64,000 nucleotides of DNA from Rathayibacter sp. VKM Ac-2760. GTDB lineage: Bacteria > Actinomycetota > Actinomycetes > Actinomycetales > Microbacteriaceae. Numbering within the stretch: position 1 is the first letter of the stretch; each line of letters starts with the position of its first letter. The stretch lies in contig NZ_CP047173.1 of the NCBI RefSeq assembly GCF_009834185.1, positions 1,391,725-1,455,724 of the forward strand, in the 5' to 3' direction. The position numbers and the translations under genes were made by a program. The notes under the pieces are model-generated. The model had not been told where the DNA came from. It made no database searches and saw nothing but the letters and a program-made list of their open reading frames with translations. Below are positions 5,802 to 20,395 of the stretch, piece after piece.

Positions 5802-7240
5802 CGCGCGCCGCCGGGCAGGACGGGGAGGCCGAAGTGCACGACCGTGGTCGTGGTCATCTCGTCGAGCAGCTCCGGGCCGTAGCCGAAGCCCGAGCCGCTG
5901 GTGCCGCGCGGCTGCGCGCTGCCGCCGGGGGCGCCGCCGAAGACGCCGTTGATCTTGACGGTGCCGACGGGGAGGGTCGCCGCGGCGCGGTGCGCGTGCT
6001 CCATGTCGGCGGTGAGCACGGTGGCTGCGAGGCCGTAGGGGCCGGCGGCGGCGCGGGTGAGCGCCTCGTCGAAGGAGTCGACGACGAGGATCGGGGCGAC
6101 GGGGCCGAAGGTCTCCTCGGTCATCACCAGCATCTCGTCGGTGCAGTCGGCGAGGACGGTAGCGGGGTAGAAGGTGCCGTCGCCGGGGGTGCCGCCGGTG
6201 AGGGCGCGGGCGCCGTCGGCGACGGCGGCGGAGACGTGCTCGTGCACGGCGTCGCGCATCCGCTCGTCGACCAGGCGGGGGAGGGGGCCGGCGCTCCAGC
6301 GCTCGGCCTCGGCGACCAGGGCGGCGGTGAAGTCCTCGGCGACGTCGCGGTGCAGGTAGATCCGCTCGACGGAGGTGCAGATCTGGCCCGCGTTGGCGAA
6401 GGCGCCGAGGGCGGCCTGCTCGGCGGCCCAGACCGGGTCGACGTCGCGGTCGACGACGAGCGCGTCGTTGCCGCCGTTCTCGAGGATGGTGTGCGCGCCG
6501 GTGACGGCGGCGATGCGGGCGAGGGCGCGGCCGGTGGCGGTCGAGCCGACGTGCGCGAGGACGTCGACGCCCTCGGTGCGGGCGAGGGCGTCGCCCACGG
6601 CGCCGTCGCCCTCGACCAGGGTCAGCACGCCCTCGGGGAGCGCCTCGGCGAGGATCGAGGTGAAGAGCGCGCCGGTGCCGGGGCTGCGCTCGCTGGGCTT
6701 GTGCACGACGACGTCGCCGGAGACGATCGCGGCGCCGAGCATCCCGGCGGCGACGGCGACCGGGTCGTTCCAGGGGGTGAGCGCGAGGACGACTCCGCGC
6801 GGGTGCGGCAGGGCGAGGTCGACGTTCAGGGCGCCGCCGCGCAGGCTCCTGCCGCGGTGCAGCGGGCCGAGCTCGGCGTACTGCAGCAGGGTGTCGACGC
6901 CGGCGCGGACGCCGCCGAGGGCGTCGCCGGCGGGCTTGCCGGTCTCCTCGGTGTTGAGGTCGGCGAGCTCCTGCTCGCGGGCGGCCACAGCGTGGGCGGC
7001 GGCGCGCAGCAGGGCGCCGCGCTCGGCGGGAGCGGTGGCGGCCCAGGTGGGGAAGGCGGCGCGGGCGCGGGAGACGGCGTCGGCGGCGAGGTCGGCGGGG
7101 GCGCCGGTGGTGCCGGCGGCGGGGGTCGCGGTGTCGATGGTCACGGTCACCTCTCGGTCGGAGGCGTCCGCAGGGGTCGCGGACGCTGATGCCCTCGTCC
7201 GATACCCGCGCGGCGGCGGCTCAAACGGATGGCTCGTCAC
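5798..7240 (-). CDS. aldehyde dehydrogenase family protein (start probably internal to this ORF)
   Basis: ALDH motifs (ENGGNDALVV, FANAGQICTSVER, EETFGPV); first in-frame start overlaps a palindromic repeat so true start uncertain. Confidence 0.8.
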   Translation of the reverse strand: MTSHPFEPPPRGYRTRASASATPADASDREVTVTIDTATPAAGTTGAPADLAADAVSRARAAFPTWAATAPAERGALLRAAAHAVAAREQELADLNTEETGKPAGDALGGVRAGVDTLLQYAELGPLHRGRSLRGGALNVDLALPHPRGVVLALTPWNDPVAVAAGMLGAAIVSGDVVVHKPSERSPGTGALFTSILAEALPEGVLTLVEGDGAVGDALARTEGVDVLAHVGSTATGRALARIAAVTGAHTILENGGNDALVVDRDVDPVWAAEQAALGAFANAGQICTSVERIYLHRDVAEDFTAALVAEAERWSAGPLPRLVDERMRDAVHEHVSAAVADGARALTGGTPGDGTFYPATVLADCTDEMLVMTEETFGPVAPILVVDSFDEALTRAAAGPYGLAATVLTADMEHAHRAAATLPVGTVKINGVFGGAPGGSAQPRGTSGSGFGYGPELLDEMTTTTVVHFGLPVLPGGAR

Positions 7241-7305
7241 AACATCAGCTGAGAAGGCGACTCATCGCCGATGAGCGATGAGCCCCCGATTCAGCTGATG
7301 TTCTG
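7238..7305. repeat. palindromic intergenic repeat, family 2 (copy A)
   Basis: CACAACATCAGCTGAGA ... TTCAGCTGATGTTCTG terminal inverted repeats between GNAT-AIRS gene end and ALDH. Confidence 0.8.
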
Positions 7306-7320
7306 CGGCCGCCGAGTGCG

Positions 7321-8706
7321 TCAGGCCGCGCCGAGGCGGGTGACGGCGGAGGTGATCGCCGGGGTGCTCGCGCCGTCGGGCCAGCGGAGGGTGACGCCCT
7401 CGCCGGGGACGACGCGGCCGATGGCGGCGGTGGCGCTGTGCGGGGTGCCCATCCGGGAGGCGCCGGGGCGGTCGGCGGTGAGCATCGCGAAGCCGGGGAA
7501 GCAGGAGAGCCAGTCGGCGAGGCCGGCGGCGGAGGGGCGGGGGATCGCGGCGACCTCGAGCTCGGCACCCGCCCCGGACGCCTCCGCGAGCATGCCGACG
7601 GTGCCGACGAGCCCGGCCATGCTGACGTCCTTCGCGCCGTCGGGAGCGCAGGCGCCGACGCTCGCAGCGAGGGCGCGGAGCACCTCCGGCGGGCGGCCGG
7701 AGGTCGAGTCCCACTGCAGTCCCGCGTAGCCCGGGCGCCACGCGCCGGAGAGGTCGGCGGTCAGGCTCAGCTGGTGTCCGATCGGGGCGCTGCCCGGGAC
7801 CGGGCGCGCGGTGCGGCCGAGGCCGGTGACCGAGAGCGCGGCGGGCACTCCGAGCTGGGTGTGGCCGCCGAGCAGTGGCACGCCCCAGGCCTCGCTGCCG
7901 GCGCGCAGGCCGCGGAGGATGCGGGCGGCGAAGGAGGCGTCCCGCGCGCCGACCGCGTCGAGCAGGCCGACCGGATCGGCGCCCATCGCGGTGAGGTCGT
8001 TGACGTTGACGAGCACCGAGCACCAGCCCGCCCACTCCGGGTCGCGCTCGACCATCGAGGGGACGATCGCGTCGCAGACGGCGACGAGGTCGGAGCCGGG
8101 GACGGGCGCGCCGTCGTCGCCGCGGAAGCCCGGGCCGCCGAGCTGGCCGGCGAACGCGTCGAGCAGCGGACCGAGGGCGGCCTTGGCCCCGCGAGCGAGG
8201 CGGTCGAAGCGGTCGATCGGCCAGCGCATCCGCACGTGCGGGACGCCGGCCACCTCCGCCGTGCCGAGGCGGTCCCAGCCGAGCCGGCGGAAGAGCACCT
8301 CGTTCTGGGTCTGCACCGTCGCCTCGAAGCGGAGCACGCCGCGCGCCTCGGCCTCGGCGCAGGCGGCCCGGACCAGCGCGGCACCGAGGCCGGCGCCGCC
8401 GCGGGCGCTGCGGCGGACGACCAGGCGACTGCCGGTCCACCAGCCCAGATCGTGCTCCAGCGCGGGCGCGATCCGCACGCCACCGAGCACGCCGTCGGCC
8501 GAGCGCGCGACCAGGACGACCGTGCGCGGATCCTCGTCGAGAGTGTCGCGGTCGTCGGCGTCGAAGAGGCCCTGCTCGGCGACGAAGACCTCGCGGCGCA
8601 GCGCCCGGTAGGCGGCCACCTCGGCCGGGTCCGCGACCACGACCACGAAGGCCTCGCGGGCAGCCGGCGCGACCGCGCGGACCCCCTCGAGGATCGAGAG
8701 CTGCAT
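7321..8706 (-). CDS. fusion protein: MSMEG_0567-type GNAT N-acetyltransferase + AIR-synthase-related (sll0787-type) domain; Nit1C-cluster NitE-NitF equivalent
   Basis: in-frame continuous ORF from MQLSILEG...; GNAT core (RIAPALEHD...GAGLGAALV) followed by PurM-like domain; ATGA overlap with upstream radical SAM gene. Confidence 0.75.
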   Translation of the reverse strand: MQLSILEGVRAVAPAAREAFVVVVADPAEVAAYRALRREVFVAEQGLFDADDRDTLDEDPRTVVLVARSADGVLGGVRIAPALEHDLGWWTGSRLVVRRSARGGAGLGAALVRAACAEAEARGVLRFEATVQTQNEVLFRRLGWDRLGTAEVAGVPHVRMRWPIDRFDRLARGAKAALGPLLDAFAGQLGGPGFRGDDGAPVPGSDLVAVCDAIVPSMVERDPEWAGWCSVLVNVNDLTAMGADPVGLLDAVGARDASFAARILRGLRAGSEAWGVPLLGGHTQLGVPAALSVTGLGRTARPVPGSAPIGHQLSLTADLSGAWRPGYAGLQWDSTSGRPPEVLRALAASVGACAPDGAKDVSMAGLVGTVGMLAEASGAGAELEVAAIPRPSAAGLADWLSCFPGFAMLTADRPGASRMGTPHSATAAIGRVVPGEGVTLRWPDGASTPAITSAVTRLGAA

Positions 8707-9851
8707 CAGGCGCCGGCGGTCTTCAGCACGCCGCAGGCGCCGCAGGCCGCGCAGCCCGCCTTCTGGCCGGAGGAGAGCATCCCCGCCGCGATCAGCAGCG
8801 CGGCGACCTGCTCGCTCACCTTCTCCAGCAGCGAGCCGGCCGGCGGCAGGACGTGGTCCACCTCCGTCGCGAGCGTGCCCCTGAGCGGCCGGAACGGCAC
8901 CACGAACGGGTAGATCCCGCGCTCGATCAGCTCGCCGGCGCTCGCGACCAGCTCGTCGGGATCCTCGCCGAGGCCGACGAGCAGGTAGGTCGAGACCTGG
9001 TTGCGGCCGAAGATCCGCACCGCCTCGTCCCAGGCCTCCCAGTACTTCGCGGTCGAGACGCGCGCCTTGCCGGGGGTCCAGCGGCGGCGGATGTCGTCGT
9101 CCATCGACTCGATGTGGATGCCGATCGAGAGGGCGCCGGCGTCCTTCAGCTCCTGCAGCGCGGCGAGGTCCTCCGGCGGCTCGCACTGCACCTGGATCGG
9201 CAGCCCGGGCACGGCCTCGAGCACAGCGCGGACGCAGCGGGCGAGGTGCCGGGCGCCGCGGTCGCGACCCTTCGAGGTGCCGGTGGTCATCACCATCTGG
9301 CGGATGCCGTCCAGCCGGGCGGCTGCCTCGGCGACCTCGGCGAGCTGCGCGGGGGTCTTCACGGCGATGGTGGAGTCGTTGGCGAGCGAGGCCTCGATCG
9401 CGCAGAAGCGGCAGCGCTCGGCCGCGTCGTAGCGCATGCAGGTCTGCACGACGGTGGTGGCGAGGATGTTCCGGCCGTGCAGGCGGGCGATCTTCTCGTA
9501 GGAGACGCCGTCGGCGGTGCTGAGGTCGTAGAAGCGCGGGCGCTTCACCGGCTCCACGTCGAGGCCGATGTCGGCGCCGTCGAGCAGGAGCCGGCCGTTG
9601 GTCACGGCGTAGGGGCTCTTCGGGTTGACGGGGATGGCGGCGCCGAGGCCGCCGAGCATCACGTGGCCGTCGTCGCTCGGGCCGGCGCCCGCCTCGCGGT
9701 GCACGGGGGCGTCGACGCGGATGCCCTGCAGGGCGATGTCGACGCGGGTGCGCAGGGCGGACGGGGCGGCTCCGCAGCCGGAGTCGGCGGGAGCGGTGTC
9801 GGTCGGGGCACTGTCGATGGTGCGGAGGCGGGGCATCTGCAGGTCGGTCAT
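8706..9851 (-). CDS. radical SAM protein, MSMEG_0568 / NitD family
   Basis: CRFCAIE Cys motif (radical SAM CxxxCxxC-like) and C-terminal GCAACGACG tail; position in Nit1C-type cluster. Confidence 0.8.
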   Translation of the reverse strand: MTDLQMPRLRTIDSAPTDTAPADSGCGAAPSALRTRVDIALQGIRVDAPVHREAGAGPSDDGHVMLGGLGAAIPVNPKSPYAVTNGRLLLDGADIGLDVEPVKRPRFYDLSTADGVSYEKIARLHGRNILATTVVQTCMRYDAAERCRFCAIEASLANDSTIAVKTPAQLAEVAEAAARLDGIRQMVMTTGTSKGRDRGARHLARCVRAVLEAVPGLPIQVQCEPPEDLAALQELKDAGALSIGIHIESMDDDIRRRWTPGKARVSTAKYWEAWDEAVRIFGRNQVSTYLLVGLGEDPDELVASAGELIERGIYPFVVPFRPLRGTLATEVDHVLPPAGSLLEKVSEQVAALLIAAGMLSSGQKAGCAACGACGVLKTAGA

Positions 9852-10017
9852 GGTGCTCCTCGGATTCTCGAGTCGAGCGGTGCGCGACGGCGAGTCCGAC
9901 GTCGTGAGCCTCCATTAGGTCAACGCGGTGTTTCGGAGCGATGACATCGGGAACGCGATCGTGTTACATCCGGCGGCCGCCCCGGAGCCCGCCCGGCGTC
10001 ACGCAGGCTTCTTCTGG

Positions 10018-10038
10018 CCGAAACCACTTCGAAACACG
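10018..10038. promoter_or_regulatory. candidate GlnR-type box (GAAAC-n6-GAAAC) in divergent promoter region of the Nit1C cluster
   Basis: sequence CCGAAACCACTTCGAAACACG in the 380-bp divergent intergenic region; resemblance to actinobacterial GlnR half-sites is inference only. Confidence 0.25.
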
Positions 10039-10229
10039 AGCGGCCTTGACTGGACGCAGTCGGGACGAACGCTCCCGACCCGGCCCCGTCGCTCCGCTCG
10101 CCCTCGAACCGCCCCGAGCGACGCCGGCCTCTGCATCACAGCACCGCCCGTTCCACCCGGCACTCCTGTCCCTGCACCACTCGCTCGCGCCCCGCCCGGC
10201 GCGCTCCTCACCGAACCCCGGAGGTTCCC

Positions 10230-10799
10230 ATGACCGACGACCAGACCACCCCCGCCGACGTCAGCACGGACGACCAGGCCGCGATCGAAGAGCAGATCAG
10301 CGCCAACATCGAGAAGTCGCGCGGCGAGATCGCGCACCCCTCGCTGCCCAAGGGCAGCAACCTCTACGGCTCCACCAAGGTCTTCCCCGACTACCAGGCC
10401 GAGCCCGGGCAGTCCTACTTCACCCTCGTGCACGGCATCGCGCACGAGTCCTCGGTCAGCTTCGTCGCGATCCTGCAGGCGACCCGCGCGGCCCGCAAGG
10501 GCTTCGAGTCGGCCGTCTACTTCTACGGCCCCGGCACGATCAACGCGATGGCGACCCGTGGCTTCCCGACGGTCGGCGACTCCGGCTTCCCGGGGGAGCA
10601 GAACATCAACGACGCCCTGAAGACCTTCATCGACGAGGGCAACCGCGTCTTCGTCTGCCGCTTCGGCATGGCGCTGCACGGCCTGCGCGAGGAGGACCTG
10701 ATCGAGGGCACCATCCCCTGCCACCCGCTCGACGTGCAGGACGCCGTCATCCACTACGCCCGCAAGGGCGCCATCATCAACTCGACCTACAACCTCTAG
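10230..10799 (+). CDS. Sll0783 / MSMEG_0572-family nitrogen-starvation-response protein (Nit1C Hp1/NitB-like)
   Basis: 189-aa ORF with good RBS (GGAGG), immediately upstream of nitrilase as in sll0783-sll0784. Confidence 0.6.
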   Translation: MTDDQTTPADVSTDDQAAIEEQISANIEKSRGEIAHPSLPKGSNLYGSTKVFPDYQAEPGQSYFTLVHGIAHESSVSFVAILQATRAARKGFESAVYFYGPGTINAMATRGFPTVGDSGFPGEQNINDALKTFIDEGNRVFVCRFGMALHGLREEDLIEGTIPCHPLDVQDAVIHYARKGAIINSTYNL

Positions 10800-10808
10800 G
10801 CCGCCGCC

Positions 10809-11687
10809 ATGACCGTCGTCGGATCGGTCGCGGCGAACTTCACCCGCGACCTCGATCAGAACTACGCGCTCATCGCCGCGCTGGCCGAGGAGGCCCGGGA
10901 GAAGCGGGTCGAGTTCCTCGTCCTGCCCGAGGCCGCGATCGGCGGCTACCTCTCCTCGCTCGGCAATCACGGCGACACCGTCAAGACGACGACCCGATCG
11001 ATGCCACCGGCGATCGCGCTGGACGGGCCGGAGCTGCGCCGGGTGCAGGAGATCGCGGGCGACCTGCTGGTCGCGATCGGCTTCTGCGAGCTCGACGAGG
11101 ACGGCGAGACCCGCTACAACGCGGCCGCCCTGCTCGACGGCGGGCAGATCTACGGCAGCTACCGCAAGGTGCACCAGCCGCTCGGCGAGCACATGTCCTA
11201 CTCGCCCGGGCCCGGCTACTCGGTCTTCGAGACGCCGGTCGGCCGGGTCGGGCTGCAGATCTGCTACGACAAGGCCTTCCCGGAGGCGGCCCGCTCGATG
11301 GCGCTGGACGGGGCGGAGATCATCGCCTCGCTCTCGGCCTGGCCGGCCGCGCGGACGGCGACGGCGGAGAACCTGCAGGAGGACCGCTGGACCTACCGCT
11401 TCAACCAGTTCGACATCGCGCGGGCCCTGGACAACCAGGTGTTCTGGCTGGCGTCGAACCAGTCCGGCACCTTCGGGTCGCTCCGCTACGTGGGCAACGC
11501 GAAGGTCGTCGATCCGGGCGGCAACATCCTCGCGACGACGCTGCTCGGCTCCGGCATGGCGGTCGCCGACATCGACGTGCGGGGCACCTTCGAGGCGATG
11601 CGCGGCGGGATGTTCCACCTGCGCGACCGCCGGCCGGACGCCTACGACATCGACCGCGTCTGGAGCGGAGGGCTGGTCCATGCCTGA
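10809..11687 (+). CDS. nitrilase, Nit6803/Nit1C family (carbon-nitrogen hydrolase)
   Basis: intact E-K-C triad contexts: LVLPEAAIGGY, YRKVH, LQICYDKAFPE. Confidence 0.85.
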   Translation: MTVVGSVAANFTRDLDQNYALIAALAEEAREKRVEFLVLPEAAIGGYLSSLGNHGDTVKTTTRSMPPAIALDGPELRRVQEIAGDLLVAIGFCELDEDGETRYNAAALLDGGQIYGSYRKVHQPLGEHMSYSPGPGYSVFETPVGRVGLQICYDKAFPEAARSMALDGAEIIASLSAWPAARTATAENLQEDRWTYRFNQFDIARALDNQVFWLASNQSGTFGSLRYVGNAKVVDPGGNILATTLLGSGMAVADIDVRGTFEAMRGGMFHLRDRRPDAYDIDRVWSGGLVHA

Positions 11688-12000
11688 GATGACCTTCCAC
11701 GTCCGCTGGCCGGACGGCGTCGAGGAGCGCTGCTACTCGCCGAGCCTGGTGATGCACGACTACCTCGCCGAGGGCGAGAGCTATCCGCTCGAGGACTTCG
11801 TCGGGCGCTCGACCGAGGCGCTGCGGCTGGCCAGCGAGCGGGTGCGCGCGAAGTTCGGCTTCGCCTGCACCTCCGCGCTGCAGCAGGAGTCGGAGATCGT
11901 CGCGGCCGCCGCGCGCTTCGACGGCGGGCGGGTGCGGGTGCTGGCGATGGATCCGCCGCTGCCGTCCGCTGCTCCGACCGTGCAGGGGACGCGCGCATGA
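11680..12000 (+). CDS. small MSMEG_0570-family protein (Nit1C Hp2/NitG-like)
   Basis: 106-aa ORF overlapping nitrilase stop and flavoprotein start; position conserved in cluster. Confidence 0.55.
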   Translation: MPEMTFHVRWPDGVEERCYSPSLVMHDYLAEGESYPLEDFVGRSTEALRLASERVRAKFGFACTSALQQESEIVAAAARFDGGRVRVLAMDPPLPSAAPTVQGTRA

Positions 12001-13271
12001 CCGCGCTCGAGAACGGCCGGCACCTGCCGGTCGCCGTGATCGGCGCCGGTCAGGCCGGGCTGTCGATCAGCCGCCTGCTCACGGACGAGGGCGTCGAGCA
12101 CCTCGTGATCGAGCGCGACACGATCGCGCACGACTGGCTCGACCGCCGCTGGGACAACTTCACCCTCGTCACGCCGAACTGGCAGTGCCGGCTCCCGGGT
12201 TACCCCTACGACGGCGACGACCCGCACGGCTTCATGACCCGCGACGAGGTGCACGCCTGGGTGCGGCGCTACGCGGAGTCGTTCGACGCTCCGGTCGTGG
12301 AGGACACCGAGGTGCTGCGGCTGCGCGAGGGCGCGGACGGGGCCTTCGAGATCGTCACCTCGCGCGGCACGATCACGGCCGACCAGGTCGTCGTCGCGAC
12401 CGGCGGCTACCACCGGCCGGTGCTGCCGGCGGTCGCGCACCGCATCCCGGACTCGGTCGTGCAGCTGCACTCGGCCGACTACCGCTCGGCCGCGGCGCTG
12501 CCCGAGGGCGGGGTGCTCGTGGTCGGCTCCGGCCAGTCCGGCGCGCAGATCGCGGAGGACCTCTTCCTCGAGGGGCGCGCCGTGCACCTGGCGCTGGGGA
12601 CCGCTCCGAGAGTCGCCCGGTTCTACCGCGGGCGGGACTGCGTCGCGTGGCTCGCCGACATGGGCGTCTACGACGTGCCGGTGCACGCGCAGGTGGGCGG
12701 GCTCTCGAAGCGGGAGTCGACCAATCACTACGTCACCGGGCGCGGCGGCGGGCGGGATATCGACCTGCGGGCGTTCGCGCGCGACGGGATGCACCTCTAC
12801 GGGCGGCTGCAGCAGGTCGACGGTGCGTCGCTCCGGTTCGCGCCGACGGCCGAGGCGTCGCTCGACTACGCGGACTCGGTCGCCGAGTCGATCAAGAACG
12901 ACATCGACGCCTACATCGAGCGCTCGGGCGTGCAGGCGCCGACCGAGGCCCGCTACACCCCGGTCTGGCGGCCGGAGCGCGAGATCGAGGAGCTGGACCT
13001 GGCGGCCGCCGGGATCACGAGCATCGTCTGGGCGGTCGGCTTCCGCGCCGACTACTCCTGGATGCAGATCGGCGTCTTCGACGGCGCCGGGCACCCCACC
13101 CACCGCCGCGGCGCGACCGCGGTGCCGGGGCTGCACTTCCTCGGGCTGCCGTGGCTGAACACCTGGGGCTCCGGCCGCTTCGAGGCGATCGCGCGGGATG
13201 CGGAGCACGTGGTGCAGCAGCTGCTCGGCGGCGCGCGGTTGGACCGGTTCGAGGGCGCCGCGGTACGGTGA
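11997..13271 (+). CDS. FAD/NAD(P)-binding oxidoreductase, MSMEG_0569 / NitH family
   Basis: two dinucleotide-binding motifs (VAVIGAGQAG; VLVVGSGQSGAQIAED), flavin monooxygenase-like. Confidence 0.8.
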   Translation: MTALENGRHLPVAVIGAGQAGLSISRLLTDEGVEHLVIERDTIAHDWLDRRWDNFTLVTPNWQCRLPGYPYDGDDPHGFMTRDEVHAWVRRYAESFDAPVVEDTEVLRLREGADGAFEIVTSRGTITADQVVVATGGYHRPVLPAVAHRIPDSVVQLHSADYRSAAALPEGGVLVVGSGQSGAQIAEDLFLEGRAVHLALGTAPRVARFYRGRDCVAWLADMGVYDVPVHAQVGGLSKRESTNHYVTGRGGGRDIDLRAFARDGMHLYGRLQQVDGASLRFAPTAEASLDYADSVAESIKNDIDAYIERSGVQAPTEARYTPVWRPEREIEELDLAAAGITSIVWAVGFRADYSWMQIGVFDGAGHPTHRRGATAVPGLHFLGLPWLNTWGSGRFEAIARDAEHVVQQLLGGARLDRFEGAAVR

Positions 13272-13352
13272 CGGCCGCGCGCTCGCCCCGGGCGCGCCTC
13301 CGGCCGCTCGTCCGGCCGCTCGTCCGGCCGGGCGGGGCGAGAGAAGAGGACC

Positions 13353-14207
13353 ATGTCGAGCATCACCCTGGCCGCGGTCGCGGCGCACTTCGGCCGCGAT
13401 CTCGAGCGCACCCTCGTCAAGCTGCCCGGCATGATCGCGAGCGCGCAGGAGCGCGGGATCGACCTGCTGGTGCTGCCCGACGCGACGCTCGGCGGCTACC
13501 TGCTCGACATGCACCACCCCGGCCCGGACGACCTGCCGCAGGCCGTGGAGGTCGACGGGCCGGAGGTCGCCGCGGTCGCGGCGATGGCGGGGGACACGAC
13601 GGTGTGCTTCGGCATCGCCGAGCGCGCGCTCGAGGGCGGCGAGGTCCGCCGCTACAACTCGGCGGTCTGCGTGCAGGGCGGCCGGGTGATCGGGACGCAC
13701 CGGAAGGTGCACCTGCCGCTGGGCGAATCGGAGGCGTACGCGGCGGGCGACGCGTTCCGCTCCTTCGACTCCGCGGTCGGGCGGATCGGGATGATGATCG
13801 ACTTCGACAAGACCTTCCCCGAGTCGGCGCGCTCGCTGGCGCTGGACGGGGCGGAGATCCTCTGCTGCCTCAGCGCCTGGCCGGCCAGCGTCACCGACCG
13901 GTCCGACCGGATCCGCAACGACCGGCAGGCGCACCTGTTCGACCTCTACGACTGCGCGCGCGCCGCCGAGAACCAGGTCTACCTGGTGTCCTCGAACCAG
14001 ACAGGCGTGCTCGGCGGGCTGCGCTTCCTCGGGCAGGCGAAGGTCGTCGATCCGGCCGGCGAGATCATCGCGAAGACGTGGGCGAAGGGCGGGCTCGCGG
14101 TCGCGACGGACGACGTGTCCGCGTCCGTGGCGCGAGCCCGGCGGAGCATGGACCACCTGCGGGACCGCGCCGTGCACGCGTACCACGGGGCGGCGCCCAC
14201 CGGCTGA
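13353..14207 (+). CDS. carbon-nitrogen hydrolase family protein, paralog of the nitrilase with degenerate catalytic triad (D-K-D)
   Basis: aligns to upstream nitrilase but has LVLPDATLGGY (Glu->Asp) and MIDFDKTFPE (Cys->Asp); Lys motif HRKVH retained. Confidence 0.8.
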   Translation: MSSITLAAVAAHFGRDLERTLVKLPGMIASAQERGIDLLVLPDATLGGYLLDMHHPGPDDLPQAVEVDGPEVAAVAAMAGDTTVCFGIAERALEGGEVRRYNSAVCVQGGRVIGTHRKVHLPLGESEAYAAGDAFRSFDSAVGRIGMMIDFDKTFPESARSLALDGAEILCCLSAWPASVTDRSDRIRNDRQAHLFDLYDCARAAENQVYLVSSNQTGVLGGLRFLGQAKVVDPAGEIIAKTWAKGGLAVATDDVSASVARARRSMDHLRDRAVHAYHGAAPTG

Positions 14208-14278
14208 CCCGGCCGGCCTGCCCGCCCGGCTGCCCGGCCCCGCTGCCCACCCGCCCGCTCGATCGAGAAGGAGACCCC

Positions 14279-15385
14279 GTGCGGATCGCGCAGCTGACCT
14301 ACTCCACCAGGCCCCGCGGCGGCGTGGTGCACACGCTCGCGCTCTCGGAGGCGCTGGCCCGGCGCGGGCACGAGGTGACCGTCTGGACGCTCGGCCGCGG
14401 CGGTGACTCCGCCTTCTTCCGCGCGGTCGATCCCGCCGTGGCGGTCCGGGTCGTGCCGTTCGCGGCGCGAGAGGGCGAGAGCGTCGGCGACCGGATCGTC
14501 CGCTCCCTCGATGCGCTCGCGGCCGGGCTCGCGGCGACGGGCGGGACGGAGTGGGACGTCGTGCACGCGCAGGACTGCATCTCGGCCAACGCCGCGCTCC
14601 GTGCCGGCGCCGCCGGACCGGGCGGGCTGCTGCGCACCGTGCACCACCTCGATGAGTTCACGACGCCGGCGCTGATCGACTGCCACGAGCGCGCGCTCAC
14701 CGGGCCGGCCGCGCTGCTCGCGGTCTCGGCGTCGGTCGCGGGCGACGTCGCCGCAGGCTGGGGCCGCGAGCCGACCGTGATCCCGAACGGCGTCGACGCC
14801 GCGCGCTTCGCCGCCGCCGCGGGCGGCCAGGGGGTCGCCGAGTGGCGGGCCGAGCTCGGCCGCTACGTGCTCGCGCTCGGCGGCATCGAGCCGCGGAAGG
14901 GCAGCGTCGACCTGCTGGCGGCGTTCGCGGGACTCGCGCCCGGCACGGTGCTCGTCTTCGGCGGCGGGGAGACGCTGTTCGACTACCGGGGCTATCGCGA
15001 GGAGTTCGAGCGCCGGGCGGCCGAGCTGGGGGTGACGCCGGTCGTGCTCGGCACGGTGCCCGAGGAGCGGCTCGCAGCGCTCGTCGCCGGCGCGGCGGTG
15101 CTCGGCTTCGTCTCGACCAAGGAGGGCTTCGGCCTCGCGGCGATGGAGGCGCTCGCCGCGGGGGTGCCGGTCGTCGCGCGCGATCTGCCGGTGCTGCGCG
15201 AGGTGTTCGGCGGGACGGTGGCGTACGGGAGCGACGTGGCGGGCATCCGGGCGGCGCTGGCCGCGGCGCTCGCGGGGGAGGCGCCGGACCCGCGGCCCGG
15301 GCGGGAGCTGGCCTTCTCGCACTCCTGGGACGACGTCGCCGCGAGCCACGAGGCCCTGTACCGGTCGCACGCGAGCGCCGCCTGA
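14279..15385 (+). CDS. GT4 glycosyltransferase, MSMEG_0565 family
   Basis: GTG start after GAGAAGGAGA RBS; GT4 E-x7-E region (EGFGLAAMEALAAGVPVV). Confidence 0.8.
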   Translation: MRIAQLTYSTRPRGGVVHTLALSEALARRGHEVTVWTLGRGGDSAFFRAVDPAVAVRVVPFAAREGESVGDRIVRSLDALAAGLAATGGTEWDVVHAQDCISANAALRAGAAGPGGLLRTVHHLDEFTTPALIDCHERALTGPAALLAVSASVAGDVAAGWGREPTVIPNGVDAARFAAAAGGQGVAEWRAELGRYVLALGGIEPRKGSVDLLAAFAGLAPGTVLVFGGGETLFDYRGYREEFERRAAELGVTPVVLGTVPEERLAALVAGAAVLGFVSTKEGFGLAAMEALAAGVPVVARDLPVLREVFGGTVAYGSDVAGIRAALAAALAGEAPDPRPGRELAFSHSWDDVAASHEALYRSHASAA

Positions 15386-16800
15386 TGCGCCGCTCGTTCT
15401 CGCGCTGCTTCTCGGCGCTCGCCGCGGAGGATCCCGAGCGGGTCGTGGTCGTCGCGGACGACGCGACGCTCACCGCGGGCGCCCTGGACCGGGCCTCGAA
15501 CCGGCTCGCGCGCGCCTACGCGGCGCGGGGCGTCACTCCGGACTCGCTCGTCGCGGTCTCGCTGCCGAACTCGGCCGAGCTGGTGCTGGCCTGCGCCGCG
15601 ATCTGGAAGGCGGGCGCGACGCCGCAGCCGCTCTCGCGCGGGCTCTCGGCGCGGGAGCTCGCCGAGGTCGGCGCGCTCGGGCGGCCCACGCTGAGCGTCG
15701 GCGTCGAGCTGGAGGGCGTGCCGTTCGTCCCCGCCGGCTTCGAGCCCGACCCGGCGCTGCCGGACGACGAGCTGCCGGATCTCCGGGCGGCGTCGTGGAA
15801 GGCGCCCGCCTCCTCCGGCAGCACCGGTCGGCCGAAGATCGTTCTCGCGGCGGCTCCCGCGCTGATGGACCCGACGCAGCCGGTCGCGGCCTTCCTGCCG
15901 CGGGAGGGGGTGCAGCTCGTGGCCGGGCCGCTCACCCACTCCGCGACCTTCACCTACGCGTTCCGCGGGCTCCTGACCGGGCAGCGGCTGGTGATCCTGC
16001 CGCGCTTCGACGAGGCGCGGGTGCTCGCCGCGATCGCGGCGCACCGGGTGACCTGGGCGCTGCTGGTGCCGACGATGATCCACCGGCTGCTGCGGACGCC
16101 CGCGCACCGGGACGCGGACGTGTCGTCGCTCGAGACGGTGCTGCACCTGGGCTCGCCGTGCCCGCCCGCGGACAAGCGCGCGCTGATCGACTGGGTCGGG
16201 GCGGAGAAGGTGGTCGAGGTCTACGCGGGCAGCGAGTCGAACGGGCTGACGATGATCCGCGGCGACGAGTGGCTGGAGCGGCCCGGCAGTGTCGGCCGGC
16301 CGATCGGCGGCACGGAGCTTCGGGTGCTGCGCCCGGACGGGACGGAGTGCGCGGTCGGTGAGCCGGGGCGGGTCTGGCTGAAGCGCGGCGAGCCGACCTA
16401 CCGCTACCTCGGCGGGGAGTCGAAGCGGACGGAGGACGGCTGGGACACGCTCGGCGACGTCGGCTCGGTCGACGCCGACGGCTACCTGACCGTGCTCGAC
16501 CGGGCCGACGACCTGATCCTGCGCGGCGGGGTGAACGTCTACCCGGCGGAGATCGAGCGGGTGCTGGAGGAGCACCCGGCGGTGCGCGGGGCGGTCGCGT
16601 ACGGCGTCCCGGATGCGGAGCTGGGCCAGGCGATCGAGGCGGTGGTCGACATCGCGGACGCCGCAGTGACGGCGGAGGAGCTGCTCGCCTTCGCGCGCGA
16701 GCACCTCGGCTCACGCGCGCCGCGGGCGCTGCGGCTCCAGCGCTCGCCGCTGCGCGACGACGCGGGCAAGGTGCGGCGCGCGGCGCTCGCGGACGACTGA
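15385..16800 (+). CDS. AMP-dependent synthetase/ligase (adenylate-forming enzyme)
   Basis: ATGA overlap with GT; motifs SSGSTGRPK, YAGSE, GWDTLGDVG, ILRGGVNVYP. Confidence 0.85.
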   Translation: MRRSFSRCFSALAAEDPERVVVVADDATLTAGALDRASNRLARAYAARGVTPDSLVAVSLPNSAELVLACAAIWKAGATPQPLSRGLSARELAEVGALGRPTLSVGVELEGVPFVPAGFEPDPALPDDELPDLRAASWKAPASSGSTGRPKIVLAAAPALMDPTQPVAAFLPREGVQLVAGPLTHSATFTYAFRGLLTGQRLVILPRFDEARVLAAIAAHRVTWALLVPTMIHRLLRTPAHRDADVSSLETVLHLGSPCPPADKRALIDWVGAEKVVEVYAGSESNGLTMIRGDEWLERPGSVGRPIGGTELRVLRPDGTECAVGEPGRVWLKRGEPTYRYLGGESKRTEDGWDTLGDVGSVDADGYLTVLDRADDLILRGGVNVYPAEIERVLEEHPAVRGAVAYGVPDAELGQAIEAVVDIADAAVTAEELLAFAREHLGSRAPRALRLQRSPLRDDAGKVRRAALADD

Positions 16801-16848
16801 GCAGCCGCGCAGGCGGGGCCCGCGAGTGGCCGCCGCCCGCAGGTCGCC

Positions 16849-16919
16849 GCACAACATCAGCTGAGAGGTGGGTCCCTCCCCCCACAGCGGAGGCCCTCCC
16901 TTCTCAGCTGATGTTGTGC
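16849..16919. repeat. palindromic intergenic repeat, family 2 (copy B)
   Basis: GCACAACATCAGCTGAGA ... TCTCAGCTGATGTTGTGC. Confidence 0.85.
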
Positions 16920-17028
16920 GGGGCTCGACGGCCGTCTCCGGTTTCGGAACGCCCCGGACGGGGAAGTGGAGGAGTGCCCCTTCCCCGGAGTCGTCCCGCG
17001 CGGCTCCGCAGCACCGAGAGGAACCCCC

Positions 17029-18111
17029 GTGGTCGCCATCGCCCCGCTCCGAGACCGCTTCGACGGAGTCGAGAGGATCGCCGTGCTCCGCGGTGGCGGA
17101 CTCGGCGATCTGCTCTTCGCGCTGCCCGCCGTGGACGCGCTCGCCGCCGCGTACCCGGGCGCCGAGATCACCCTGCTCGGCACTCCGGCGCACCGCGTGC
17201 TGATCGAGGGCAGCGACGCGCCCGTGGCGGGCGTCGAGGTGCTGCCGGTGGCGCAGGGTGTGCGCGACGGCGACGGGGAGGACGAGCGGATCGTCGAGGA
17301 CTTCACGGCCCGGATGCGCGCCCGGCGCTTCGACCTCGCGGTGCAGCTGCACGGCGGCGGGCGCTTCTCCAACCCGTTCCTGCTACGGCTCGGCGCGCGG
17401 CACACGATCGGCACGCGCACCGACGACGCGGCGGACCTGGAGCGCACCATCCCCTACGTCTATTACCAGCACGAGATGCTGCGCGCGCTCGAGGTCGTCG
17501 GGCTCGCGGGCGCGCCGGCGGTGCGGCTGGAGCCGTCGCTGCAGGTCGACCCGGAGCGCCGCGACCGGCTCGCCGCGGTGCTGCCCGACGGCGGACCGCT
17601 GGTGCTGATCCACCCGGGGGCGACGGACGTGCGGCGGCGCTGGGCGAGCGCGTCCTTCGCCGAGGTGGCGCGGGCGCTGCTGGCGGACGGGGCGCGCGTG
17701 CTCGTGGTCGGCGACGCCTCCGACGTGCCCGCCGCCGACGCGATCGTCGCGGGCGCGCCGGGCGCCGTGTCGTGGGCCGGCGCGGTCGAGCTGCCGGACC
17801 TCGCTCCGCTGCTCTCGCTCGCCGACCTCGTGCTCGGCAACGACAGCGGACCGCGGCACCTCGCAGCGGCGGTCGGGGCGCCCACGGTCGGCGTCTTCTG
17901 GGTGGGCAACGCGATCAACGCCCAGCCCCTCGGCCGCCAGCGCCACCGCGTCCAGCTGAGCTGGACCACCCGCTGCCCGGTCTGCGGCATCGACGTCACG
18001 CAGGTCGGCTGGACCGCCCCGCGCTGCGAGCACGAGCTGTCCTTCGTCGACGACGTCCCCGTCTCCCGCGTCCTGGAGGACGCCCGAGCCGTCCTCGCCT
18101 CGACCAGCTGA
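17029..18111 (+). CDS. glycosyltransferase family 9 (heptosyltransferase-like) 1
   Basis: GTG start after GAGAGGAA; C-terminal GNDSGPRHLAAAVGAPTVGVF motif typical of GT9. Confidence 0.8.
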   Translation: MVAIAPLRDRFDGVERIAVLRGGGLGDLLFALPAVDALAAAYPGAEITLLGTPAHRVLIEGSDAPVAGVEVLPVAQGVRDGDGEDERIVEDFTARMRARRFDLAVQLHGGGRFSNPFLLRLGARHTIGTRTDDAADLERTIPYVYYQHEMLRALEVVGLAGAPAVRLEPSLQVDPERRDRLAAVLPDGGPLVLIHPGATDVRRRWASASFAEVARALLADGARVLVVGDASDVPAADAIVAGAPGAVSWAGAVELPDLAPLLSLADLVLGNDSGPRHLAAAVGAPTVGVFWVGNAINAQPLGRQRHRVQLSWTTRCPVCGIDVTQVGWTAPRCEHELSFVDDVPVSRVLEDARAVLASTS

Positions 18112-18133
18112 CGACGCCCGGGCCTTGCCCCAA

Positions 18134-18196
18134 CCGCGAGATGCCACTTATGAGCGGCGACACCGGCGTGTCGCGCTCATAAGTGGCATCTCGCGG
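18134..18196. repeat. palindromic intergenic repeat, family 1 (copy 3) between convergent genes
   Basis: CCGCGAGATGCCACTTATGAGCG...CGCTCATAAGTGGCATCTCGCGG; G->A change in left arm matched by C->T in right arm. Confidence 0.9.
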
Positions 18197-18243
18197 GAGG
18201 GGTCGGACGCGGGTGAGCGTCAGACGTCCTGGGCGTCAGCGGG

Positions 18244-18948
18244 TCACGGCCAGGAGGGCTCCTCCTCGTGGGTGATGACGAGCTCGCGGACCTCGCAACC
18301 GCGGGGCTGGCCGAGGACGAACATCACGGCGTTCGCGACGTTCTCCGGGTCGTTGAGGAGCGCGTCGGGGCCCGGCTTGTACTGGGCGTCGCGGTCGTCG
18401 AAGAAGCGGGTCTTCATGCCGGAGGGGATCAGGGTGGTGACGCCGATCTCGCCCTTGGTCTCGGCCGCGAGGGCGCGGGTGAAGCCGAGCACGCCGAATT
18501 TCGACGCGCAGTAGGCGGTCGCGTCCGAGACGGCCTTGATCGCGAGCGAGGACGCGACGGTGACGACGCGGCCGTGGGTCTCCGTCAGGAACGGCAGCGC
18601 GGCGCGGACGACAGCGGCGGTGCCGAGCAGGTTGACCGAGATCACGCGCTCCCACTCCTCCGGGTCGACGTCGACGAGGCGGCCGCAGCGGTCGATGCCG
18701 GCCGCGGTGACGACGGCGTCGAGTCCGCCGTGCTCGTGGGCGATCTCGACGACCGCCTTCTCGGCCTCGCGGGTCTTCGCGACGTCCACCTGGTAGGCGG
18801 CGACGCCCTCCTGCACGTTCGACACGTCGCGGTCGAGGACGATCGGCGTGCCGCCCGCGGCCGCGACGGCAGCGGCGACGGCGGCTCCGAGTCCGGAGGC
18901 GCCTCCGGTGATCAGGACGCGGCCGATGGGGGTGGGGGTGGTGGTCAT
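18244..18948 (-). CDS. SDR family oxidoreductase
   Basis: TGGASGLG cofactor motif, YxxxK (YCASK). Confidence 0.85.
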   Translation of the reverse strand: MTTTPTPIGRVLITGGASGLGAAVAAAVAAAGGTPIVLDRDVSNVQEGVAAYQVDVAKTREAEKAVVEIAHEHGGLDAVVTAAGIDRCGRLVDVDPEEWERVISVNLLGTAAVVRAALPFLTETHGRVVTVASSLAIKAVSDATAYCASKFGVLGFTRALAAETKGEIGVTTLIPSGMKTRFFDDRDAQYKPGPDALLNDPENVANAVMFVLGQPRGCEVRELVITHEEEPSWP

Positions 18949-19020
18949 GGGTGTCCCTTCCAGGATCCTCGGCGCCGGCGAGCGGGCGCGGTGGGTGGTG
19001 GTCGGCCGGAGCCGACGCGG

Positions 19021-20395
19021 TCAGCCGACGCGCGCGAGCGCGGCGGCGAGATGGGTGGTCGAGCGGCCCGCGTGGTACGGCACCGTCAGGACGCGGCCGC
19101 CCCACTCGGCGACCGTCGCGGTCTCGGGCAGCGATTCGGCGGAGTAGTCGCCGCCCTTGACCCAGACGTCCGGGCGGATGCGGCGCAGTGCCTCGTCCGG
19201 GGTGTCCTCGCCGAAGACGAGCACGGCGTCGACGCACTCGAGCGCGAGCAGCAGGTCGACCCGGTCGTCCTCGGGGATGATCGGCCGCGCCGGTCCCTTC
19301 AGGCGACGGACGGAGTCGTCCGAGTTGAGGCAGACGATCAGGCAGTCGCCGAGCGCCCGGGCGGCCGAGAGGGTGCGGGCGTGCCCGGCGTGCAGCAGGT
19401 CGAAGCAGCCGCCGGTCGCGACCACGGTGCCGCCGGCGCCGCGGACGGCCTCGGCGACGCGCAGCGCGTCCACCCCCGAGGCCCCGTGCAGGGCGGCGGT
19501 GTCGGCGGGCACGGCGAGGGAGGCGCGACCGCCCGCGAGCAGATAGGCACCGGCCGCGGCGACGGCCGCGCCGACCGCCTCGGACGCAGTGGCCCCGCCC
19601 GCGAGTGCGACGGCGGCGGAGGCGGCGAAGGTCGCCCGCCCCGCACGGGTCCGTCGGCGGCACGGGGGCGGCAGGATGCACGACCGGAACGCCGGCGCCG
19701 CGCGAGCGGACCAGCGCACCGCCGGAGCCCATCGTCACGGCGACCGCGCCGCAGCCCCAGCGCTCGAGCAGCGTCGTCGCGGCGGTCTCGGCGAGGGTGA
19801 CGCCGCGGCCACTCGCGCCGGAGAAGCCGGTGGCCTCGCCGAGGTTCGGCGTCGCGAGGGTCGTCCCGGCGACGGGCGCCGAGCCGCGCGGGTGCGGATC
19901 CCAGACCAGCGGCACCGAGAGCGCGTCGAGGGCGGCCCGCAGCGAGGCGTCCTCGGTCAGCCGGCGGCCGTAGTCCGCCACGACGACCGCGTCCACCTCG
20001 TCGAGCGCGGCGAGCATCTCCAGGGTCACGCTCGGCACCGGCGGTCGCTCGCAGCCGCGGTCGAAGCGGACGACGGCCTGGCCGGAGGCCGCGACCCGCG
20101 TCTTCACCGGCGTCGGAGCGCCGGACGGACCGGCGACCACCCGCACGCCGTCGAGCGCGACCAGCAGCTCGGCGGCATCCGGGTCCGCGGCGTCGGCGAG
20201 CGCCGTCACCAGCACGACGTCGTGGCCGTCGCGCGCGAGCATCCGCGCCACGAGCCCGGCGCCGCCGGCCCGGACCCCGCGGGTCGACACGTCGACCACG
20301 GGCACGGGCGCGTCGGGGCTCAGCCGCTCGGCCGGGCCGGAGAGGTCGACGTCGAGCATCACGTCGCCGACCACGGCGATCCGCAGGCGGCTCAC
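19021..20395 (-). pseudogene. hldE: second hldE copy (heptose kinase/adenylyltransferase) interrupted by an apparent 1-nt frameshift near 19630
   Basis: kinase domain in one frame up to ...DPCGAGD, continuation TFAASAAVALAGG... and full adenylyltransferase domain (GGCFDLLHAGH...RRLKG) in another frame; GTGA overlap with gmhA stop. Confidence 0.6.

What the first reader, a model, noticed from the sequence alone, without database searches (positions are those of the whole stretch)
13353..14207. Second nitrilase-superfamily paralog with Glu->Asp and Cys->Asp substitutions at the catalytic triad
The paralog aligns motif-for-motif with the upstream Nit6803-type nitrilase. LVLPEAAIGGY becomes LVLPDATLGGY and QICYDKAFPE becomes MIDFDKTFPE. 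The catalytic Lys (HRKVH) is kept.

Loss of the nucleophilic Cys predicts a non-canonical or inactive (pseudo-enzyme, perhaps binding or scaffold) CN-hydrolase inside the Nit1C operon.
Basis: seen in the sequence. Interest (0 to 1): 0.55.

Follow-up and report, generated by a model that had tools for sequence, protein, structure and literature searches.

The report
Conserved cysteine-less nitrilase-fold paralog
A gene in an actinobacterial nitrogen-starvation-type operon encodes a nitrilase-superfamily protein whose catalytic cysteine is an aspartate in all 358 relatives examined, so it is a strongly selected non-canonical family member rather than an error, and its actual job is still unknown.

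Summary
ORF 13353-14207 (+) is a CN-hydrolase-fold protein (Pfam PF00795, 127 bits). It is 44% identical to the upstream paralog at 10809-11687. It reads D43-K118-E125-D150 where the paralog reads E41-K120-E127-C152.

This is not a local error. D150, K118 and E125 are invariant in 358/358 orthologs checked, and D43 is present in 352/358. The protein evolves as slowly as the operon's real enzymes. It always sits in the same cluster, next to a canonical E-K-E-C paralog.

- Neither hydrolase is Nit6803-type (32 and 40 bits against a cut-off of 502.6).
- By synteny, this gene matches MSMEG_0566, not MSMEG_0571.

The two clades share 70 invariant positions. Only six positions are fixed in both clades but different, and two of those six are the catalytic Glu and Cys.

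The protein therefore cannot form the thioacyl intermediate, yet it keeps a selected pocket. My best reading (0.45) is a non-hydrolysing protein that binds or handles a pathway intermediate. The main rival (0.35) is a re-tooled enzyme using carboxylate chemistry. A decaying relic, an alternative cysteine and a sequencing error are all effectively excluded.

I class it as a new variant of a known kind, of moderate interest.

The parts
13353..14207 (+). PAR: the Cys-less CN-hydrolase-fold paralog (284 aa), an MSMEG_0566-type protein with signature D43-K118-E125-D150
13343..13349 (+). Shine-Dalgarno-like GAAGAGG, 3 nt upstream of the ATG
13479..13481 (+). Codon GAC = D43, at the position of the catalytic general-base Glu (E41 in the paralog)
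13704..13706 (+). Codon AAG = K118, the retained catalytic Lys
13725..13727 (+). Codon GAA = E125, the retained second catalytic Glu
13800..13802 (+). Codon GAC = D150, at the position of the nucleophile Cys (TGC in the paralog)
10809..11687 (+). UP: the canonical CN-hydrolase paralog (292 aa; E41-K120-E127-C152), MSMEG_0571-type and not Nit6803-type
10230..10799 (+). MSMEG_0572/Sll0783 family protein (TIGR04044, 242 bits)
11680..12000 (+). MSMEG_0570 family protein (TIGR04042, 126 bits)
11997..13271 (+). MSMEG_0569 family flavin-dependent oxidoreductase (TIGR04046, 635 bits)
14280..15385 (+). MSMEG_0565 family GT4 glycosyltransferase (TIGR04047, 394 bits). A GT lies directly downstream of PAR in 58/76 related loci
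8706..9851 (-). MSMEG_0568 family radical SAM protein (TIGR04043, 497 bits)
7321..8706 (-). MSMEG_0567-type fusion of a GNAT with an AIR-synthase-like domain (TIGR04045 + TIGR04050)

Best explanation
PAR is the MSMEG_0566-type component of the actinobacterial Nit1C-like operon (the MSMEG_0565-0572 or 'gpr' type). It arose by an old duplication of the operon's canonical E-K-E-C hydrolase. Two substitutions became fixed: the nucleophile Cys became Asp and the general-base Glu became Asp. Almost all the rest of the active-site framework was kept. SHOWN: it has the CN-hydrolase fold, D150 sits at the nucleophile position, the D-K-E-D set is under strong purifying selection, and the gene is an obligatory member of the full cluster. 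INFERRED: without a thiol it cannot form the thioacyl-enzyme, so it is not a nitrilase or amidase in the family's sense. MOST LIKELY MECHANISM (inferred): it still binds the same kind of small amide-, carbamoyl- or nitrile-type intermediate as its paralog, in a pocket now lined by three carboxylates and a lysine. It holds, delivers or senses that intermediate for the radical-SAM / GNAT-AIR-synthase / glycosyltransferase part of the pathway. It may do so inside a hetero-oligomer, since this fold always dimerises. In other words, it is a pseudoenzyme for the ancestral reaction but a functional protein.
For: Fold and site.
Conservation: D150, K118 and E125 are invariant in 120/120, 80/80, 116/116 and 42/42 orthologs. 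D43 is present in 352/358, with exceptions N, Y, G, H (twice) and E. The H variant sits in an intact cluster. The first carboxylate is therefore important but dispensable, which is unlike a true general base. That position is E in all 77 complete UP copies from the genome loci and all 75 complete ones from the metagenome loci.
Selection: the mean pairwise distance of PAR is 0.316. That is lower than UP (0.333), the flavoprotein (0.374) and the GNAT-AIR fusion (0.383). Column conservation is 0.76 for PAR against 0.75 for UP.
Pocket kept: 70 positions are invariant and identical in both clades. These include HRKVH, D152-K153-x-F-P-E (K153 aligns with the carboxylate-binding R175 of D-carbamoylase), SAWP and ENQ. 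Only 6 positions are fixed but different.
Co-occurrence: 77/80 loci picked by PAR also carry UP, and the other 3 are cut at the contig end. 35 of the 36 UP-picked loci of at least 9 kb that extend far enough carry PAR.
Out-of-cluster copies (P0126 A-Q-H-D, P0129 A-Q-D-D) have lost K and E. The residues do drift once the context is lost.
Three of the six fixed differences (Q192/W194, L195/R197, A205/L207) lie on helix 186-207. From my own knowledge of the fold, I assign that helix to the dimer 'A' interface.
Heteromeric nitrilases exist in plants (NIT4A/NIT4B2, PMC5154151).
Against: Typical binding-only pseudoenzymes replace catalytic residues with inert ones. Here both replacements keep a reactive carboxylate, and D150 is 100% invariant, which looks like re-tooling for chemistry. 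K118 and E125 have no obvious reason to be invariant in a pure binder. There is no special co-evolution with UP: distance-matrix r is 0.60 for PAR-UP but 0.73 for PAR-rSAM and PAR-GNAT_AIR. UP identity to the window is bimodal while PAR identity is not. One reduced module has UP without PAR (L155). No biochemical data exist for any member, and no paper was found. I had no atomic coordinates to inspect the geometry of the four residues.
Confidence: 0.45

Rival explanations
1. Re-tooled enzyme. The D43-K118-E125-D150 site is a new catalytic centre built on the CN-hydrolase scaffold. Asp150 would act as a carboxylate nucleophile, or together with D43 as a general acid/base pair activating water, possibly with a metal. 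The substrate would be a more activated or different group than an amide or nitrile, for example an ester, an acyl- or imidoyl-phosphate made by the AIR-synthase-like enzyme, a glycosyl linkage made by the adjacent glycosyltransferase, or an epoxide or aziridine.
For: Both substitutions keep a carboxylate and are paired: Cys to Asp adds bulk while Glu to Asp removes a methylene. D150, K118 and E125 are invariant in 358/358 orthologs. Only 6 fixed differences separate PAR from an active paralog, and 2 of them are the catalytic residues. PAR is among the slowest-evolving proteins of the cluster. PAR co-varies best with the rSAM and GNAT-AIR enzymes and lies directly before the GT in 58/76 loci. 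As a precedent from my own knowledge, alpha/beta-hydrolases swap Ser, Cys and Asp nucleophiles when the chemistry changes, as in dehalogenases and epoxide hydrolases.
Against: As far as I know and could find, no carboxylate-based member of the nitrilase superfamily has been described. Position 43 tolerates H, G, Y, N and E in otherwise intact clusters. No substrate can be named. The geometry could not be checked.
Confidence: 0.35
2. Decaying relic. PAR is a redundant duplicate that lost its nucleophile and is drifting towards a pseudogene.
For: The catalytic Cys is lost. A few distant out-of-cluster relatives have also lost K and E (P0126, P0129, P0163, P0139).
Against: The ORF is intact, with an SD sequence and GC3 of 0.98 like its neighbours. 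It is retained in every complete cluster across many actinobacterial families despite at least 5 gene-order rearrangements. Its conservation equals or exceeds that of the cluster's enzymes.
Confidence: 0.03
3. Canonical amidase after all. The alignment is shifted, or another cysteine (ILCCLSAW, C85 or C106) serves as the nucleophile.
For: C85 and C106 are conserved in the clade (77/80 and 78/80).
Against: Three independent alignments (BLASTP to the paralog, and HMMER to the Pyrococcus and D-carbamoylase structures) and the model's strand-turn-helix elbow all put D150 at the nucleophile site. C171 and C172 are not conserved. C85 and C106 lie inside predicted core strands 83-94 and 97-108, and the matching UP columns hold mixed hydrophobic residues.
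Confidence: 0.03
4. Sequencing or assembly error in this window.
For: None.
Against: TGC to GAC needs two base changes. The same residues occur in 358 independent sequences from isolates and metagenomes.
Confidence: 0.005

Closest known systems
MSMEG_0566 of the Mycolicibacterium smegmatis MSMEG_0565-0572 ('gpr') operon. The operon is GlnR-dependent, induced >500-fold by nitrogen starvation and linked to peroxide resistance (PMC6039565)
   Same: PAR holds the same position in the same gene set. The Mycolicibacterium loci read 0572 - CN-hydrolase(EKEC) - 0570 - 0569 - rSAM - GNAT/AIRS - PAR(DKED), and many other loci add a GT. All other genes of the window's cluster pass the MSMEG_05xx NCBIfam cut-offs.
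   Different: The M. smegmatis protein itself was not retrieved here. The paper calls it a 'putative aliphatic amidase', a label that the missing Cys makes untenable for its orthologs.
Canonical non-nitrilase CN-hydrolases: D-carbamoylase (1erz/2ggl), N-carbamoylputrescine amidohydrolase (5h8i), Pyrococcus amidase/nitrilase (3ivz, 6ypa) and the H. pylori CN hydrolase (6mg6)
   Same: Same fold (Foldseek TM 0.78-0.85, E about 1e-22), same motif framework, and retained Lys and second Glu.
   Different: Nucleophile Cys is Asp and general-base Glu is Asp. PAR and UP share an extra segment (about 178-200) that is absent from the Pyrococcus enzymes.
Classical Nit1C cluster with a NitC / Nit6803 branch-1 nitrilase (Podar 2005, PMC1199592; PMC7815647)
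   Same: Six of its seven gene families are present: the 0572-like ORF1, rSAM, GNAT, AIR-synthase-like, the 0570-like ORF6 and the flavoprotein.
   Different: There is no TIGR04048 nitrilase. Instead there are two paralogous amidase-like CN-hydrolases, one of them Cys-less, plus a GT. GNAT and AIRS are fused.
Heteromeric plant nitrilases NIT4A/NIT4B (as cited in PMC5154151)
   Same: Paralogous nitrilase-superfamily subunits that work as a hetero-complex. This is a precedent for a partner-subunit role.
   Different: Both plant subunits keep the Cys. No evidence for a PAR-UP complex was obtained here.
Nucleophile swaps (Ser/Cys/Asp) in alpha/beta-hydrolases such as dehalogenases and epoxide hydrolases (my own knowledge, not tested here)
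   Same: A conserved scaffold on which a Cys/Ser nucleophile is replaced by Asp when the chemistry changes.
   Different: A different fold. It serves only as an analogy for the neo-enzyme rival.

Membership tests
Nitrilase superfamily / CN_hydrolase (PF00795) | Sequence match to the domain model above the gathering score | tested here: met
   127.4 bits against 23.2, covering residues 7-257
Nitrilase superfamily / CN_hydrolase (PF00795) | Alpha-beta-beta-alpha sandwich fold | tested here: met
   AF2 model with pLDDT 85.8 and pTM 0.88. Foldseek to PDB CN-hydrolases gives TM 0.78-0.85 at probability 1.00
Nitrilase superfamily / CN_hydrolase (PF00795) | Catalytic Glu-Lys-Cys triad plus second Glu (the CEEK tetrad, PMC6637149) | tested here: not met
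   The set is D43-K118-E125-D150: the Cys is absent and the first Glu is Asp. PAR is a structural member, not a catalytic member
Nit6803 family nitrilase (TIGR04048) | Score at or above the curated cut-off of 502.6 bits | tested here: not met
   PAR scores 32.3 bits and the upstream paralog 39.9 bits. Nit6803 (3wuy) is not among the PDB sequence hits of either
Classical Nit1C gene cluster (Podar 2005) | Subfamily-1 (branch 1) nitrilase as ORF2 | tested here: not met
   Both hydrolases are amidase/carbamoylase-like
Classical Nit1C gene cluster (Podar 2005) | ORF1 (YchN/DsrE-like), rSAM, GNAT, AIRS, the ~100-aa ORF6 and the flavoprotein, all clustered | tested here: met
   TIGR04044, 04043, 04045, 04050, 04042 and 04046 are all above cut-off within 7321-13271
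Actinobacterial MSMEG_0565-0572 ('gpr') operon, MSMEG_0566 position | Same gene set, with the second CN-hydrolase placed after GNAT/AIRS or the flavoprotein and before the MSMEG_0565-type GT | tested here: met
   Found in 77/80 PAR-picked loci and in 35 of the 36 UP-picked loci that extend far enough. A GT is adjacent in 58/76
Actinobacterial MSMEG_0565-0572 ('gpr') operon, MSMEG_0566 position | Direct orthology to the M. smegmatis protein sequence | not tested
   The M. smegmatis locus was not among the 80 loci returned. The assignment rests on synteny in other Mycolicibacterium species
Actinobacterial MSMEG_0565-0572 ('gpr') operon, MSMEG_0566 position | GlnR-dependent induction under nitrogen starvation | tested here: inconclusive
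   Two GlnR-box-like matches lie in the 378-bp divergent promoter region, but the pattern is not enriched window-wide. No expression data are available

The most novel reading that the evidence does not exclude
The D-K-E-D clade is the first natural nitrilase-superfamily enzyme that works without a thiol. It would have a re-tooled active site in which Asp150, with D43, E125 and K118 and possibly a metal, catalyses a new reaction on an intermediate of the still-unsolved Nit1C-like nitrogen-starvation pathway.
Probability: 0.3. Interest if true: 0.8.

Novelty: new variant of a known kind. Interest (0 to 1): 0.5.

Why it matters
The Nit1C-type clusters are widespread, strongly induced by nitrogen starvation, and linked to cyanide assimilation in Pseudomonas and to peroxide resistance in mycobacteria. 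After 20 years they still lack a known pathway (PMC1199592, PMC7815647, PMC6039565).

This analysis shows that the actinobacterial version carries two sister CN-hydrolases, one active-looking and one invariantly Cys-less. That corrects current annotations ('aliphatic amidase', 'nitrilase', 'acyltransferase') and gives a clean experimental handle in D150 and D43.

Depending on the outcome, the clade would be either a first well-defined pseudoenzyme clade of the nitrilase superfamily or a first carboxylate-based chemistry on this fold.

Tried and rejected
- Context of the most divergent cluster representatives (P0122, P0123, P0125, P0126, P0129) via the look-up of encoding contigs. The contigs were only 1.3-4 kb. 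P0126 and P0129 have no cluster genes beside them, and the others were uninformative.
- Literature. I found no paper on a Cys-less MSMEG_0566, on pseudoenzymes of the nitrilase superfamily, or on recent Nit1C biochemistry beyond NitC.
- Mirror-tree test for PAR-UP co-evolution. It gave no special signal: r is 0.60, lower than PAR-rSAM and PAR-GNAT_AIR at 0.73. I therefore did not adopt 'obligate heterodimer with UP' as the main model.
- Rfam scan of 7000-16000 for a leader RNA or riboswitch. It returned only a sub-threshold chance hit.
- GlnR-box pattern. There are two hits in the promoter region, but the window-wide count is below the shuffles, so this is weak.
- Selenocysteine read-through of UP's TGA, as proposed for MSMEG_0571 in PMC6039565. 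The frame is open here but closed in 23/63 same-frame loci, and the 0570 gene is read in another frame. I rejected this idea.
- Alternative catalytic Cys. Rejected.
- Atomic geometry of the four residues and a heterodimer prediction could not be done, because the tools return no coordinates and offer no multimer mode.

Full report
**1. What is at the coordinates**

The window is a high-GC actinobacterial sequence (70-77% GC). Its closest relatives are Rathayibacter sp. VKM Ac-2857 and Ac-2856, at 96% amino-acid identity for this gene.

ORF 13353-14207 (+) encodes 284 aa. It starts at an ATG three bases after GAAGAGG. It matches Pfam CN_hydrolase at 127 bits against a cut-off of 23.2.

BLASTP against the upstream ORF 10809-11687 gives 44% identity and E 2e-82.
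- LVLPE / LVLPD
- YRKVHQPLGE / HRKVHLPLGE
- ICYDKAFPE / IDFDKTFPE

The paralog ('PAR') therefore reads D43-K118-E125-D150. The upstream protein ('UP') reads E41-K120-E127-C152. The D150 codon is GAC and the UP Cys codon is TGC, which is two changes apart.

**2. Is D150 really at the nucleophile position?**

Four lines of evidence agree:
- HMMER alignments to solved structures put D150 under C146 of the Pyrococcus nitrilase/amidase.
- In the deposited C146A variant (6ypa), the engineered Ala lies under D150.
- D150 aligns with C172 of D-carbamoylase, with D43 under E47, K118 under K127 and K153 under R175.
- An AlphaFold2 model (pLDDT 85.8, pTM 0.88) places D150 between strand 143-149 and helix 150-154, which is the classical elbow.

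Foldseek finds D-carbamoylases, N-carbamoylputrescine amidohydrolase, an H. pylori CN hydrolase and the Pyrococcus amidase at TM 0.78-0.85.

No alternative cysteine is available:
- The ILCCLSAW cysteines are not conserved. Position 171 is Ala in 69/80 orthologs, and position 172 is Cys 50 / Ala 29.
- The two conserved cysteines (C85, C106) lie inside predicted core strands. The matching UP columns hold mixed hydrophobic residues.

**3. The locus**

NCBIfam places every neighbour above its curated cut-off:

| Window coordinates | Strand | Assignment |
|---|---|---|
| 7321-8706 | - | MSMEG_0567 GNAT + AIR-synthase-like fusion |
| 8706-9851 | - | MSMEG_0568 radical SAM |
| 10230-10799 | + | MSMEG_0572/Sll0783 family |
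| 11680-12000 | + | MSMEG_0570 family |
| 11997-13271 | + | MSMEG_0569 flavoprotein |
| 14280-15385 | + | MSMEG_0565 glycosyltransferase |

Neither CN-hydrolase is a Nit6803-type nitrilase. They score 39.9 and 32.3 bits against the TIGR04048 cut-off of 502.6. UP's best solved relatives are carbamoylputrescine amidohydrolase and the Pyrococcus amidase.

Classical Nit1C has seven genes and one branch-1 nitrilase (PMC1199592, PMC7815647). This locus is the actinobacterial variant described in M. smegmatis as the GlnR-dependent 'gpr' operon, MSMEG_0565-0572 (PMC6039565).

In Mycolicibacterium loci the order is 0572 - UP - 0570 - 0569 - rSAM - GNAT/AIRS - PAR. UP therefore corresponds to MSMEG_0571 and PAR to MSMEG_0566.

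**4. Is the D-K-E-D pattern conserved?**

Yes. The signature counts are:

| Sequence set | Signatures |
|---|---|
| 120 closest homologs (71-92% identity) | D43 in 119/120 (one N); K118, E125 and D150 in 120/120 |
| 80 species-representative genome loci (Microbacteriaceae, Gordonia, Rhodococcus, Mycolicibacterium, Nocardioides, Aeromicrobium, Streptomyces, Amycolatopsis and others) | DKED 78, YKED 1, GKED 1 |
| 116 further sequences, reached with a profile of divergent members (Amycolatopsis, Streptomyces, Actinomadura and others) | DKED 113, HKED 2, EKED 1 |
| 42 metagenomic copies | all DKED |

The totals are D150, K118 and E125 in 358/358 and D43 in 352/358.

An HKED variant sits in an intact cluster.

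Among 50%-identity cluster representatives, a few distant relatives have also lost K and E: P0126 A-Q-H-D, P0129 A-Q-D-D and P0163 A-Q-Q-D. P0139 has lost K and has Gly at the Cys position. The two I could locate are on short contigs without any cluster gene beside them. These residues can therefore drift, and they do not drift inside the cluster.

**5. Selection and relationship to UP**

A neighbour-joining tree makes the PAR and UP clades monophyletic sisters, with canonical E-K-E-C hydrolases outside them.

PAR is not relaxed:
- Column conservation is 0.76 for PAR against 0.75 for UP.
- Median identity to the window is 62.5%, like the flavoprotein (62.6) and GNAT-AIRS (60.5).
- Mean pairwise distance is 0.316 for PAR, below UP (0.333), the flavoprotein (0.374) and GNAT-AIRS (0.383).

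Seventy positions are invariant and identical in both clades. Only six are invariant in both but different: D43/E41, D150/C152, Q192/W194, L195/R197, A205/L207 and L226/V228. The change is therefore narrowly targeted. It affects two catalytic residues plus three residues on helix 186-207. From my own knowledge of the fold, I assign that helix to the dimer 'A' interface. The existence of that interface is cited in PMC6637149.

**6. Co-occurrence**

- Loci picked by PAR: 77/80 also carry an E-K-E-C UP, and nearly all of these also carry the rSAM, GNAT-AIRS, 0572 and flavoprotein genes. The other three end within 1.4 kb upstream of PAR.
- Loci picked by UP, from metagenomes: of 40 loci of at least 9 kb, 35 carry PAR[DKED] and 4 are cut before its expected place.
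- One UP-picked locus (L155) is a reduced 0572-UP-flavoprotein module without rSAM, GNAT-AIRS or PAR, flanked by Ser/Thr kinases.

Gene order varies, with at least five arrangements, but PAR always stays in the cluster. A GT follows it directly in 58/76 loci.

PAR's distance matrix tracks the rSAM and GNAT-AIRS proteins (r 0.73) better than UP (r 0.60).

**7. Interpretation**

Shown:
- PAR is a fold member of the nitrilase superfamily that fails the family's defining catalytic feature.
- It is fixed in that state.
- It is under strong purifying selection.
- It is an obligatory part of the full actinobacterial cluster.

Inferred: no thioacyl chemistry is possible, so labels such as 'nitrilase', 'aliphatic amidase' and 'acyltransferase' (source names; PMC6039565) are misleading.

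For the positive function, two readings remain.

I favour (0.45) a protein that binds or handles an intermediate without hydrolysing it:
- The ancestral pocket is kept.
- Position 43 tolerates H, G, Y, N and E.
- The interface helix is differentiated from UP.
- Heteromeric nitrilases are known (PMC5154151).

The rival (0.35) is a re-tooled carboxylate-based enzyme:
- Both replacements keep a reactive carboxylate.
- K118, E125 and D150 are absolutely invariant.
- PAR is among the most conserved proteins of the cluster.
- It co-varies with the rSAM/GNAT-AIRS module rather than with UP.

A decaying relic, a hidden cysteine and a sequencing error are effectively excluded.

**8. Novelty and score**

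No paper in the searchable library describes this Cys-less clade or any pseudoenzyme clade of the nitrilase superfamily. No NCBIfam model names it.

Cys-less CN-hydrolases with G, L or A at the site do occur elsewhere among the representatives, so loss of the Cys is not unique in itself. What is unusual is the invariant Asp plus the paired Glu to Asp change. The clade is also ancient, strongly constrained and embedded in an operon.

I rate it a new variant of a known kind, with interest 0.5. If carboxylate catalysis were demonstrated, it would be a new chemistry for the fold (probability about 0.3, interest 0.8).

Noticed in passing
window 10809-13271: UP and the flavoprotein gene share a reading frame. 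The only in-frame stop between UP's start and the flavoprotein's stop is UP's TGA (11685-11687). This mirrors the 'selenoprotein read-through' proposed for MSMEG_0571-0569 in PMC6039565. Across related loci the two genes share a frame in 63/68, but the frame is closed by stops in 23 of those 63, and the 0570 gene is read in another frame. Conserved 8-nt and 4-nt gene overlaps plus high GC explain the pattern.
   Followed up: yes
window 9852-10229 (divergent promoter region between the rSAM and 0572-family genes): This region holds two of the window's ten one-mismatch matches to a GlnR-box-like pattern, GTNAC-N6-GNAAC (9930-9945 on the minus strand; 10020-10035, 'GAAACcacttcGAAAC'). This would fit GlnR control as in M. 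smegmatis, but the pattern is not enriched in the window overall.
   Followed up: partly
L001-L080 (UP genes), e.g. L049:4923-5759 versus L036:7582-8424: UP identity to the window is bimodal. It is about 80% in Microbacteriaceae and in Gordonia/Mycolicibacterium-type clusters, and 51-59% in Rhodococcus-, Nocardioides- and Streptomyces-type clusters. PAR is 60-64% in both groups. The two paralogs therefore have partly uncoupled histories, through module exchange or rate shifts.
   Followed up: partly
L155:9378-12260: This is a reduced three-gene module (0572 family, UP-type hydrolase, flavoprotein) without the rSAM, GNAT-AIRS or PAR genes, flanked by Ser/Thr protein kinase genes. It suggests the cluster is built from two separable modules, with PAR belonging to the rSAM/GNAT-AIRS one.
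   Followed up: partly
window 13303-13332: A short tandem repeat, CCGGCCGCTCGT x about 2.5, lies in the 81-bp spacer upstream of PAR.
   Followed up: no
window 15400-22461: Downstream lies a glycan-type locus. It holds an AMP-binding enzyme, a GT9 heptosyltransferase-like protein, an SDR, an RfaE-like kinase and a cytidylyltransferase-like domain in two overlapping frames (18236-20395 / 19021-19719), a SIS/GmhA-like protein and a GT4. An aldehyde dehydrogenase lies upstream (5798-7240, minus strand).
   Followed up: partly
window 13884-13919 (PAR residues 178-189) and the matching UP segment: PAR and UP share an inserted segment relative to the Pyrococcus enzymes (about residues 178-200). Its first part is the only low-confidence stretch of the model (pLDDT below 50). 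It precedes the helix that carries three of the six clade-discriminating residues.
   Followed up: no
P0158, P0178, P0197, P0168, P0212, P0223 (representative proteins): Other CN-hydrolase lineages among the distant hits also lack the Cys, with Gly, Leu or Ala at that position while keeping E-K-E. Cys-less members may therefore be more common in this superfamily than the literature suggests.
   Followed up: no
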